From positions 15,405 through 79,404 of IMG/VR virus record IMGVR_UViG_3300020055_000012: a DNA stretch of 64,000 nt; one strand, 5' to 3'. This stretch comes from a virus. Under the pieces are notes generated by a model. The model did no database searches and had not been told where the DNA came from. It worked only from the letters and a program-made list of their open reading frames with translations. The position numbers were made by a program, and so were the translations under genes. This document shows, piece after piece, positions 39,049 to 40,062 of this stretch (positions within the stretch are counted from its first letter, which is position 1; each line of letters starts with the position of its first letter).

Positions 39049-39159
39049 ATGAAAAATTTAAAAACATATCGCAATATTGAACCGACCATTACAGGAACTT
39101 GTCCTGCGTATGGCTGGAATAATACGGGTGTGTTTAATGATAGATTATATATGAAATAA
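39049..39159 (+). CDS. Leader peptide 3 (MKNLKTYRNIEPTITGTCPAYGWNNTGVFNDRLYMK)
   Basis: 3' part of ORF-track 38968..39159; contains all nine amino acids of the downstream array and the antiterminator strand. Confidence 0.85.
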   Translation: MKNLKTYRNIEPTITGTCPAYGWNNTGVFNDRLYMK

Positions 39160-39213
39160 AATAATATTAAAATCAAAATACACACCCGGACCCAAAAAGG
39201 TTCGGGTTTTTTT
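39125..39213 (+). promoter_or_regulatory. Attenuator 3: antiterminator (39125-39133 with 39180-39188) versus terminator (39184-39213)
   Basis: Perfect 9-bp CGGGTGTGT/ACACACCCG overlapping terminator ACCCGGACC/GGTTCGGGT + 7 T. Confidence 0.85.
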
Positions 39214-39225
39214 ATGCTTAAATTT

Positions 39226-39302
39226 GGGGAATTAGCTCAGCTGGCTAGAGCACTTGATTTGCATTCAAGAGGTCATCGGTTCGACTCCGTTATTCTCCAC
39301 CA
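39226..39302 (+). tRNA. tRNA-Ala(UGC)
   Basis: G3:U70; CTTGA-TTTGCAT-TCAAG; CCA. Confidence 0.92.
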
Positions 39303-39304
39303 AA

Positions 39305-39387
39305 GGAAGTGTTGAGCAATTGGTTGGCTCGCCTGTCTGTAAAACAGGTTCTTTTTAGACTTGAAGGTTCGAATCCTTCCACTTCCA
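39305..39387 (+). tRNA. tRNA-Tyr(GUA)
   Basis: CCTGT-CTGTAAA-ACAGG; variable arm. Confidence 0.88.
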
Positions 39388-39393
39388 CAAAAA

Positions 39394-39465
39394 GCAAGAT
39401 GTAGCTTAACTGGTAAAGCATCTGCCTTCCAAGCAGAGGACGGAGTTCGAATCTCACATCTTGCT
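39394..39465 (+). tRNA. tRNA-Gly(UCC)
   Basis: TCTGC-CTTCCAA-GCAGA; U discriminator. Confidence 0.88.
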
Positions 39466-39547
39466 CTCTAGAGTAGTTTGCTGATTTAAGGTCTTATAAT
39501 CAGACGGGATGGTCACCTCTGTTTGAAGTGCAGTTAATAACCGTAAT

Positions 39548-39620
39548 ACGTCTGTAGTTCAATTGGTAGAATGACGGTCTCCAAAACCGTTGGTTGTAAG
39601 TTCGAATCTTACCAGACGTG
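39548..39620 (+). tRNA. tRNA-Trp(CCA)
   Basis: ACGGT-CTCCAAA-ACCGT. Confidence 0.9.
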
Positions 39621-39626
39621 CAAATT

Positions 39627-39699
39627 CGGGGTGTGGCGCAGTTGGTAGCGCGGGGCGTTTGGGACGCTCAGGTCGTCAGTTCGAGTCTGGCTACCCCGA
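39627..39699 (+). tRNA. tRNA-Pro(UGG)
   Basis: CGGGGTG start; GGGCG-TTTGGGA-CGCTC. Confidence 0.92.
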
Positions 39700-39704
39700 C
39701 ATAT

Positions 39705-39778
39705 ACGCCTATAGCTCAGCTGGTTAGAGCATTTGACTGATACTCAAAAGGTCAGTGGTTCAAATCCACTTAGGCGTA
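39705..39778 (+). tRNA. tRNA-Ile(GAU)
   Basis: TTTGA-CTGATAC-TCAAA. Confidence 0.9.
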
Positions 39779-39787
39779 CAAATAAAT

Positions 39788-39861
39788 GCTCCTATAGCTC
39801 AATTGAATAGAGCGCCAAACTACGGATTTGGAGGTTGAAAGTTTGAATCTTTCTGGGAGTA
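39788..39861 (+). tRNA. tRNA-Arg(ACG)
   Basis: CCAAA-CTACGGA-TTTGG. Confidence 0.88.
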
Positions 39862-39872
39862 CATATAATAAT

Positions 39873-39947
39873 GCCTCATTAGCTCAGATGGCTGAGAGCG
39901 ACTGATTTGTACTCAGTAGGTCGGGGGTTCGAGTCCCTCATGAGGCT
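39873..39947 (+). tRNA. tRNA-Thr(UGU)
   Basis: ACTGA-TTTGTAC-TCAGT. Confidence 0.9.
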
Positions 39948-39956
39948 CTAAAATAT

Positions 39957-40031
39957 GGGCATATGACCGAGTGGTTTAGGTGCTGGATTGCAAACCCAGA
40001 TACGCTAGTTCAAATCTAGCTATGCCCTCCA
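39957..40031 (+). tRNA. tRNA-Cys(GCA)
   Basis: CTGGA-TTGCAAA-CCCAG; U discriminator + CCA. Confidence 0.9.
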
Positions 40032-40032
40032 G

Positions 40033-40062
40033 AACTCCAATGATAAAAAGTTGGAGTTTTTT
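40033..40062 (+). terminator. Terminator closing tRNA array 3
   Basis: AACTCCAA-loop-TTGGAGTT + T tract. Confidence 0.8.

What the first reader, a model, noticed from the sequence alone, without database searches (positions are those of the whole stretch)
39049..40062. Leader 3 lists the amino acids of its nine-tRNA array almost exactly
Seen: the 18 codons at 39064-39117 encode T,Y,R,N,I,E,P,T,I,T,G,T,C,P,A,Y,G,W, covering all nine array amino acids including W, C, P and A, which are scarce in this AT-rich proteome. GC-rich codons CGC, CCG, ACC, GCG and GGC stand out locally. The perfect 9-bp antiterminator begins 8 nt after the Trp codon, and tRNA-Ala starts 13 nt after the terminator. This is the cleanest single case for experiments.
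Basis: seen in the sequence. Interest (0 to 1): 0.88.

Follow-up and report, generated by a model that had tools for sequence, protein, structure and literature searches.

The report
Leader-peptide attenuator gating phage tRNAs
A tiny gene written in the codons read by the nine tRNA genes behind it, wired to a switchable transcription stop, probably lets this giant phage make those tRNAs only when ribosomes decode those codons slowly; this is trp-operon-style control, for which I found no published account on tRNA genes.

Summary
Confirmed and extended. The 36-codon ORF at 39049-39159 carries, in 18 consecutive codons, every amino acid of the nine-tRNA array behind it. Chance is about 2e-4, or 1e-3 allowing for window choice.

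The ORF sits in a full four-segment attenuator. Segment 1 is 39062-70, segment 2 is 39125-33, and segment 3 (39180-88) overlaps an intrinsic terminator (39184-39213). tRNA-Ala starts 12 nt later.

A pattern describing only the switch found ten loci in viral contigs, and all ten precede tRNA arrays. I tabulated 17 leader/array pairs of eight leader types from eight phage contigs. Leader codons match their own array in 16/17 at p<0.01, and the true pairing is the best of 40,320 permutations. One leader has seven consecutive Gln codons before four tRNA-Gln genes. Reading frame, stop position and the alternative pairings recur even between unrelated switch sequences.

Best reading: ribosome-mediated attenuation of tRNA genes, with read-through when the array's codons are decoded slowly.

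There is no experimental or transcript evidence. I found no published account; the nearest in print is the TrcR-repressed Anabaena tRNA operon. This scan has noted the same design before on other DNA, including phiCbK-like phages, which I partly re-checked.

The parts
39030..39038 (+). promoter-like motif TATATTTAA, 11 nt upstream of the leader ATG
   Evidence: Similar TATATTTA / TACTATTTA motifs lie 10-25 nt upstream of most of the other leader ORFs. Inference only; no start site is mapped.
39049..39159 (+). leader ORF, 36 codons, ATG to TAA
   Evidence: The homologue in G004 (L050) has the same length to segment 2 and the same frame. There is no Shine-Dalgarno motif, as for 61 of 62 long ORFs of the contig.
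39062..39070 (+). segment 1 (anti-antiterminator), pairs with 39127-39135
   Evidence: It is paired this way in the full-length minimum-energy fold. An ACACAU-like segment at nt 14-25 of the ORF pairs with segment 2 in 14 of 17 leaders.
39064..39117 (+). sensor codons: 18 codons covering all nine amino acids of the array
   Evidence: 16 of the 18 residues are array members. 12 of 24 codons before segment 2 are cognate by strict wobble, against 20% background (p = 8e-4).
39075..39124 (+). imperfect hairpin inside the sensor, extended by the 1:2 stem; possible pause hairpin
   Evidence: The function is inferred.
39125..39133 (+). segment 2: 5' arm of the antiterminator (contains GGGTGTG)
   Evidence: Perfect 9-bp complement of 39180-39188. 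The duplex with the terminator flank is -13.2 kcal/mol; 4 of 300 shuffles do as well.
39180..39188 (+). segment 3: 3' arm of the antiterminator, overlapping the terminator's 5' arm by 5 nt
39184..39213 (+). intrinsic terminator: 9-bp stem, 6-nt loop, T run
   Evidence: The stem covaries across 13 family members: 98% of cells paired, 2 pairs with compensatory changes, and 0 of 500 shuffles reach the covariation score.
39226..40031 (+). array of nine tRNA genes: Ala(tgc), Tyr(gta), Gly(tcc), Trp(cca), Pro(tgg), Ile(gat), Arg(acg), Thr(tgt), Cys(gca)
   Evidence: ARAGORN and Rfam. The 81-nt spacer 39467-39547 is neither conserved nor structured.
40031..40060 (+). terminator-like hairpin closing the array
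33965..34146 (+). paralogous attenuator 2, with the same segments 1-4. It precedes two ORFs and the array Ser, Ser, Lys, His, Asp, Asn, Val, Phe, Met.
   Evidence: 9 of 10 sensor codons of the ATG ORF (34031-34087) are cognate.
32186..32319 (+). attenuator 1: unrelated sequence, same layout. It precedes Ile(tat), Arg(tct, with intron) and Met(cat).
   Evidence: It has four ATA and three AGA/AGG codons, and its homologue in G004 keeps them.

Best explanation
Leader 3 is a ribosome-mediated (leader-peptide) transcription attenuator that controls a phage tRNA operon.

Proposed mechanism:
1. Transcription starts just upstream of the 36-codon ORF.
2. With no ribosome, segment 1 (39062-70) pairs with segment 2 (39125-35). 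Segment 3 is then free to form the terminator with segment 4, and transcription stops 12 nt before tRNA-Ala.
3. With a fast ribosome, the ribosome runs through segment 2 to the stop codon, which lies between segments 2 and 3. The 1:2 hairpin can re-form behind it, and again the terminator forms.
4. If the ribosome lingers in the sensor codons (39064 to about 39108) because a cognate charged tRNA is scarce, 1:2 cannot form and segment 2 stays free. Segment 2 captures segment 3 as it emerges, the terminator cannot form, and RNA polymerase reads into the nine tRNA genes.

The sensor is written in the codons of those nine tRNAs. The circuit is therefore a negative feedback on decoding capacity: the array is made when its codons are read slowly and shut off when supply suffices.

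Shown: the anatomy, its recurrence, and the codon match. Inferred: translation of the ORF, the direction of the switch, and the physiological signal.
For: 1. Anatomy. ORF, segments 1-4 and terminator are present. The terminator state and the antiterminator state are nearly isoenergetic, -39.6 against -37.7 kcal/mol.

2. Recurrence. A pattern for segments 2, 3 and the terminator alone gave 10 viral-contig loci, and all 10 lie upstream of tRNA arrays. A looser pattern added four further loci. Three are in GC-richer contigs without tRNAs. The fourth (L065, 35% GC) has two His codons in its leader and a tRNA-His 591 nt downstream.

3. Codon match. In 17 leader/array pairs, the sensor is enriched in codons cognate to its own array in 16 of 17 at p<0.01. 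Nearly every array amino acid is represented.

4. Specificity. For eight leader types the true leader-to-array assignment is the single best of 40,320 permutations. Mean z is 4.2 on the diagonal and -0.3 off it. Within the window each of the three leaders matches its own array best.

5. Limiting case. In the 518-kb genome G001, a leader with seven consecutive Gln codons (six CAA, one CAG) and a terminator sit 12 nt before three tRNA-Gln(ttg) and one tRNA-Gln(ctg). A neighbouring leader uses CTA, TTA, CTT, AGA, ATA and GAA before Leu(tag), Leu(taa), Leu(aag), Arg(tct), Ile(tat) and Glu(ttc).

6. Co-variation. The G004 homologue of leader 3 has AAG where the window has CGC, and its array alone has an extra tRNA-Lys(ctt). 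The other four residue changes in the 18-codon core keep or gain array membership.

7. Translation. The distance from the ATG to segment 2 is 62, 74, 77, 101, 104, 107 or 113 nt, always 2 mod 3. Indels among type II leaders are whole codons. The stop always falls 12-34 nt after the start of segment 2.

8. Convergence. Three switch types with unrelated sequences (window attenuator 1, G001-c, G001-d) have the same layout. Their antiterminator pairings beat shuffles: 17/300, 3/300 and 1/300 shuffles do as well.

9. Cultured example. phiCbK, a GC-rich phage, has short ORFs plus annotated terminators before three tRNA blocks, with matching composition.
Against:
- The 7-bp core of the antiterminator is invariant in the family, and 11 of the 13 sequences were found by a pattern that fixes it. 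There is therefore no covariation for 2:3.
- By strict wobble only 12 of 24 sensor codons are cognate. Asn and Glu codons have no tRNA in the array, and the spacer hides none.
- Each regulatory codon occurs only one to three times, so sensitivity to a single tRNA species may be low.
- The Tyr, Gly and Trp codons at 39109-39117 are 8-16 nt from segment 2. A ribosome stalled there would cover part of it.
- Equilibrium folds downstream of a simulated stalled ribosome flip between the two states, so the decision must be kinetic. Kinetics was not modelled.
- In type II loci a conserved promoter-like element lies between the terminator and the first tRNA, so some arrays may have a second promoter.
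- Host and transcribing polymerase are unknown.
Confidence: 0.8

Rival explanations
1. The switch is real and ribosome-dependent, but it reports amino-acid charging or general translation stress (starvation, host shut-off, ribosome-targeting compounds) rather than the supply of the array's tRNA species. The array is then a stress-induced reserve, as in Anabaena.
For: A stalled ribosome cannot tell a missing tRNA from an uncharged one. The Anabaena tRNA operon is induced when translation is impaired (PMC8421152). Leaders with 9-11 different amino acids would respond to almost any slowdown.
Against: A general sensor would not need array-specific codon sets. Leaders of one genome differ from each other and each matches its own array at codon level, for example AAG with Lys(ctt) and CTA/TTA/CTT with three Leu isoacceptors. 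Making more tRNA does not relieve amino-acid starvation.
Confidence: 0.12
2. Segments 2 and 3 (GGGTGTG / CACACCC) are binding sites for a phage or host antitermination factor. The ORF is incidental or has another role.
For: The two motifs are invariant across the family, with no covariation.
Against: Three sequence-unrelated switches have the same ORF, arm and terminator geometry. Frame and stop position are conserved. The codon match to the arrays has no place in this model.
Confidence: 0.05
3. Coincidence: a small independent gene or chance ORF followed by an ordinary terminator, with the array transcribed from elsewhere.
For: A 35-codon peptide covers all nine amino acids by chance about 1% of the time. 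AT-rich intergenic DNA holds many weak promoter-like sites.
Against: The upstream gene is on the other strand, so the terminator can only end the leader transcript. Only 12 nt separate the T run from tRNA-Ala. The same arrangement with matching codons recurs in 17 cases.
Confidence: 0.03

Closest known systems
Leader-peptide attenuators of amino-acid operons (trpL, hisL, leuL, pheL; the multivalent thrL and ilvGMEDA leaders) of enterobacteria (textbook knowledge; modelling in PMC1183508)
   Same: A short translated leader with regulatory codons. Four segments form 1:2, 2:3 or 3:4, and an intrinsic terminator follows. Stalling favours 2:3 and read-through. The G001 Gln leader with seven tandem codons looks like hisL. 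Leaders with several amino acids resemble multivalent attenuation.
   Different: The regulated genes are tRNAs, not biosynthetic enzymes, so the loop closes on decoding capacity itself. Up to 11 amino acids are listed, mostly once to three times each. The ORF reads through segment 2 and stops between segments 2 and 3. The elements are phage-borne, several per genome, one per array.
pheST (phenylalanyl-tRNA synthetase) attenuator of E. coli (own knowledge, not checked here)
   Same: Leader-peptide attenuation applied to a component of the translation apparatus rather than to a biosynthetic operon.
   Different: It regulates a synthetase, with one amino acid, and it is chromosomal.
T-box riboswitches
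   Same: Terminator/antiterminator switch that reports the state of a specific tRNA.
   Different: T-boxes bind uncharged tRNA directly and have no leader ORF. No T-box model matched the window. T-boxes control synthetase and amino-acid genes.
Anabaena sp. PCC 7120 trn operon (L-array), silent and induced by translational stress (PMC8421152; PMC10272220)
   Same: A supernumerary tRNA array that is expressed when translation is impaired.
   Different: Control is at the promoter, by the repressor TrcR binding direct repeats. The words leader peptide, attenuation and terminator do not occur in either paper.
tRNA region of coliphage T5 (NC_005859)
   Same: Phage tRNA genes interspersed with many short ORFs.
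   Different: The annotation shows promoters directly before tRNA groups and no terminator between a short ORF and the tRNAs. I did not test codon matching there.

Membership tests
Ribosome-mediated (leader-peptide) transcription attenuators | Short ORF at the 5' end of the transcript, upstream of the regulated genes | tested here: met
   The ORF 39049-39159 sits between a divergent gene and the array. Equivalent ORFs are present in all 17 loci.
Ribosome-mediated (leader-peptide) transcription attenuators | The ORF is translated | tested here: inconclusive
   Indirect support only. The frame is kept across seven different ATG-to-arm distances and whole-codon indels, stop placement is conserved, and the start context is typical of the genome. 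No ribosome or peptide data exist.
Ribosome-mediated (leader-peptide) transcription attenuators | Regulatory codons cognate to what the operon supplies | tested here: met
   Enrichment at p<0.01 in 16 of 17 leaders. The true pairing is the best of 40,320 permutations.
Ribosome-mediated (leader-peptide) transcription attenuators | Intrinsic terminator between leader and regulated genes | tested here: met
   39184-39213. The stem covaries in the family.
Ribosome-mediated (leader-peptide) transcription attenuators | Antiterminator mutually exclusive with the terminator and placed where the ribosome can influence it | tested here: met
   Perfect 9 bp overlapping the terminator arm by 5 nt. The pairing beats shuffles in 13 of 17 and always lies inside the ORF, 12-34 nt before the stop. 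There is no covariation because the core is invariant.
Ribosome-mediated (leader-peptide) transcription attenuators | Anti-antiterminator (segment 1) that sequesters segment 2 when the leader is not being translated | tested here: met
   Segment 2 pairs upstream with nt 14-25 of the ORF in the full-length fold of 14 of 17 leaders.
Ribosome-mediated (leader-peptide) transcription attenuators | Read-through rises when the cognate aminoacyl-tRNA is limiting | not testable with these tools
   This needs coupled transcription-translation or in vivo reporters.
Ribosome-mediated (leader-peptide) transcription attenuators | Regulated genes are amino-acid biosynthesis or synthetase genes (all described members, to my knowledge) | tested here: not met
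   The regulated genes are nine tRNA genes. This is the respect in which the element is a new variant.
T-box riboswitch | Match to the T-box covariance model (specifier loop, T-box sequence) | tested here: not met
   No T-box hit at the gathering threshold in the window, nor at E<=0.1 in 32300-40100.

The most novel reading that the evidence does not exclude
Phages of unrelated lineages (AT-rich huge phages here, GC-rich phiCbK-like phages) split their tRNA genes into arrays, and each array is gated by its own codon-matched leader. Each array would then be an on-demand module. It fires when the host tRNAs for that codon set are depleted, for example by host anticodon nucleases or by phage-induced decay of the host translation machinery, and it shuts off once the phage tRNAs restore decoding. 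That would be a decoding-capacity homeostat and a built-in counter-defence sensor.
Probability: 0.3. Interest if true: 0.93.

Novelty: new variant of a known kind. Interest (0 to 1): 0.86.

Why it matters
Leader-peptide attenuation has been the textbook way in which bacteria couple amino-acid supply to biosynthetic operons. Here the same device appears to regulate tRNA genes themselves, so the ribosome's speed on a set of codons directly sets the production of the tRNAs that read them.

If true, three things follow:
- It explains why large phages group their tRNA genes into arrays of particular composition.
- It gives a mechanism for when phage tRNAs are made, an open question in the debate over why phages carry tRNAs.
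- It offers compact, codon-specific sensors of decoding capacity for synthetic biology.

The poly-Gln case and the presence of the design in cultured phiCbK make it directly testable.

Tried and rejected
- Exact 18-nt terminator tail as a probe. It found five viral contigs that merely share a common terminator sequence and are not relatives.
- Relatives through the neighbouring 123-aa protein. None were found in viral contigs.
- blastn of the locus and of a type II leader against cultured phages. Only tRNA hits, or nothing.
- The nearest cultured or deposited relative by the SNF2-type helicase. It is a 484-kb uncultured phage (LR756508), but the switch model does not match it.
- Hidden tRNA (Asn or Glu) in the 81-nt spacer 39467-39547. 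The spacer is not conserved with G004 and is no more structured than shuffles.
- Conserved ACATATCGCAA as a sign against coding, because it is read in different frames in attenuators 2 and 3. Resolved: it belongs to segment 1, an RNA-level element.
- Covariation in the antiterminator. None is possible because the core is invariant.
- Equilibrium folding with a simulated ribosome footprint. It gives no consistent answer because the two states are within 2 kcal/mol.
- Search for sequencing runs holding the locus.
- T5 tRNA region as a known precedent. The layout differs.
- Substitution classes between homologous leaders. Outside the 18-codon core they are not clearly biased towards array members.

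Full report
**What is there**

The window is part of a 79.4-kb, 30% GC virus record that CheckV rates 24% complete. It carries three tRNA clusters on the + strand. The finding concerns the third.

- Between a minus-strand gene ending at 38956 and tRNA-Ala at 39226 lies a 36-codon ORF, ATG 39049 to TAA 39157-39159.
They cover all nine amino acids of the array; only Asn and Glu are non-members.
- A perfect 9-bp pairing joins 39125-39133 to 39180-39188.
- The latter overlaps by 5 nt the 5' arm of a canonical intrinsic terminator (stem 39184-39207, T's to 39213).
- The tRNA starts 12 nt later.
- The upstream gene is on the other strand, so this terminator can only end the leader transcript.

**Is the coverage more than chance?**

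I used the amino-acid composition of the contig's long ORFs.

- A fixed 18-codon stretch covers all nine amino acids with probability 1.7e-4.
- Allowing the best window within a 35-codon peptide gives 1.1e-3.
- No 18-residue window of the real proteins does it (0 of 19,642).
- 11 of 55,871 stop-free six-frame windows do.

On its own this is suggestive rather than decisive.

**The comparative evidence**

Attenuators 2 (33965-34146) and 3 share the motifs GGGTGTG and CACACCC and the same terminator tail. I searched viral contigs with a pattern made only of those switch motifs. It returned ten loci, and every one lies upstream of a tRNA array.

A covariance model and a looser pattern added members:
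- a type I copy in G001 and an attenuator-2 homologue in G004 with the same arms;
- two switches of different sequence in G001;
- four further loci from the looser pattern. Three are in GC-richer contigs without tRNAs. The fourth (L065, 35% GC) has two His codons in its leader and a tRNA-His downstream.

After fetching the surrounding DNA I tabulated 17 leader/array pairs from eight contigs, falling into eight leader types.

- One type, rich in Phe, Ser, Asn, His and Lys codons, precedes Phe/Ser/Asn/His/Thr/Lys arrays.
- A longer type precedes Gly/Met/Val/Trp/Tyr/Pro/Ile/Asp/Ala/Thr/Arg arrays.
- A leader in G003, dominated by Thr, Val, Ala, Arg, Pro and Gly, precedes exactly those tRNAs.
- In the complete 518-kb genome G001, a leader with seven consecutive Gln codons (six CAA, one CAG) and a terminator stand 12 nt before three tRNA-Gln(ttg) and one tRNA-Gln(ctg).
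- The neighbouring G001 leader uses CTA, TTA, CTT, AGA, ATA and GAA before Leu(tag), Leu(taa), Leu(aag), Arg(tct), Ile(tat) and Glu(ttc).

**Statistics**

- With strict wobble rules and the contig's codon usage as background, the codons between the start and segment 2 are enriched for codons read by the leader's own array in 16 of 17 cases at p<0.01.
- The only array amino acids missing from a sensor are Met, which the start codon supplies, and Val in two short leaders.
- For leader 3 the figure is 12 of 24 codons against 20% expected (p = 8e-4). For its G004 homologue it is 17 of 24 (p = 2e-7).
- Taking one representative per leader type, the true assignment of leaders to arrays scores highest of all 40,320 permutations. 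Mean z is 4.2 on the diagonal and -0.3 off it.
- Within the window, within G001 and within G004, leaders match their own array rather than the other arrays of the same genome in all but one case; G004's attenuator-1 homologue scores higher on the neighbouring array.
- This excludes a general agreement between phage codon usage and phage tRNAs as the explanation. Related types share ancestry, so the 17 cases are not 17 independent events. The permutation test therefore uses types.

**Evidence that the ORF is read**

- In the four types that share the GGT GTG frame, the distance from the ATG to segment 2 takes seven values (62, 74, 77, 101, 104, 107, 113 nt), all 2 mod 3.
- Type II leaders differ by four whole-codon indels.
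- The stop codon always lies 12-34 nt after the start of segment 2, between segments 2 and 3.
- The G004 homologue of leader 3 has AAG where the window has CGC, and its array alone contains tRNA-Lys(ctt). The other four residue changes in the 18-codon core keep or gain membership of the array set.
- The missing Shine-Dalgarno motif is normal here: 1 of 62 long ORFs has one, and A-rich upstream regions are the rule.

**RNA anatomy**

- In the full-length fold of leader 3, segment 2 pairs not with segment 3 but with 39062-39070, and the terminator forms.
- Truncated before the terminator's 3' arm, the fold shows the 2:3 helix.
- The same upstream partner, an ACACAU-like stretch at nt 14-25 of the ORF, pairs with segment 2 in 14 of 17 leaders.
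It is segment 1, an RNA-level element.
- The terminator stem covaries.
- The antiterminator core is invariant, partly by construction of the search, so it gives no covariation.
- Three switches of unrelated sequence (window attenuator 1 with its G004 homologue, G001-c and G001-d) show the same geometry, with pairings better than shuffles.
- The terminator and antiterminator states of leader 3 differ by only 2 kcal/mol.

**Mechanism**

The layout is the classical 1:2 / 2:3 / 3:4 attenuator.

- No translation or fast translation gives the terminator.
- A ribosome held among the sensor codons prevents 1:2 and leaves segment 2 free to capture segment 3. Transcription then continues into the tRNAs.
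- The sensor lists the array's codons, so the natural reading is a feedback on decoding capacity.
- Only the anatomy and its conservation are shown. Translation, direction of the switch and the signal are inferred.

Caveats:
- The Tyr, Gly and Trp codons at 39109-39117 are so close to segment 2 that stalling there may not help.
- Single codons may give weak sensitivity.
- Type II loci carry a conserved promoter-like element after the terminator.
- The host, probably one with Shine-Dalgarno-independent initiation, and the polymerase are unknown.

**Comparison with what is known**

- Searches of the paper library for leader peptides or attenuators linked to tRNA genes, arrays or operons found nothing relevant.
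- The nearest case, the Anabaena trn operon induced by translational stress, is controlled by the repressor TrcR at its promoter.
- No T-box model matches the window.
- The T5 tRNA region has a different layout.
- Notes of this scan report the same design on other DNA, including phiCbK-like Caulobacter phages.
- I re-checked phiCbK. Three tRNA blocks are each preceded by a short ORF and an annotated terminator. For example gp083, half of whose residues are Ser, Leu, Pro or Lys, lies before Pro, Lys, Leu and Ser tRNAs.
- The phiCbK genome paper does not mention attenuation.

**Verdict**

The element works like, and meets the structural criteria of, a leader-peptide attenuator. Its target, tRNA genes, makes it a new variant of that kind. 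The whole case is computational.

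Noticed in passing
window 32522-32805: ARAGORN's intron option reads tRNA-Arg(tct) interrupted by a 207-nt intron in the anticodon loop. The G004 homologue is an uninterrupted tRNA of about 75 nt. No Rfam intron family matched at E<=0.1, so the intron class is unknown.
   Followed up: partly
window 34710-34800: GC-rich structured RNA between the 172-aa ORF and the 70-aa ORF. ARAGORN at a relaxed threshold calls it tRNA-Ser(tga), and Rfam gives a sub-threshold tRNA-Sec match of 30 bits. G004 has Ser(tga) at the equivalent place. The TCA codon of leader 2 would be read by it.
   Followed up: partly
window 35683-35781 and 35857-36030: tRNA-like stretches inside and after array 2 that neither ARAGORN (default) nor Rfam accepts. 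One is called Gln(ttg) only at a relaxed threshold. They may be decayed or unusual tRNAs.
   Followed up: no
window 34165-35030: Two protein ORFs (172 aa and 70 aa) lie between attenuator 2 and its tRNAs, so they would be co-regulated with the array. The 172-aa protein has no PHROG match. The arrangement is conserved in L010 and G004.
   Followed up: partly
L047 about 6435-6580 (G001:346435-346580): Leader with seven consecutive Gln codons, then a terminator, then four tRNA-Gln genes starting 12 nt after the T run. This is the cleanest single-amino-acid case of the family.
   Followed up: yes
L046 10405-10525 and the equivalent places in L048, L052, L011: A conserved element of about 50 nt lies between the type II terminator and the first tRNA. 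It is a small hairpin followed by TTTGCA and TTGACATATTG. It could be a second promoter or a processing signal.
   Followed up: no
L065 (minus strand, oriented 353-421), 93.6-kb contig, 35% GC: Chance-looking hit of the loose pattern. It nevertheless has an ATG ORF with two adjacent His codons running into GGGGTGTG, then a terminator, and a tRNA-His 591 nt downstream. It may be a further member.
   Followed up: no
L067 (phiCbK JX100813 47000-52900): In cultured phiCbK three tRNA blocks each follow a short ORF and an annotated rho-independent terminator, and the ORF composition matches the block. This is a tractable system for experiments.
   Followed up: partly
whole contig (G000): Only 1 of 62 long ORFs has a Shine-Dalgarno-like motif, and positions -12 to -8 are A-rich. 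This suggests a host with Shine-Dalgarno-independent initiation, such as Bacteroidota. The host was not determined.
   Followed up: partly
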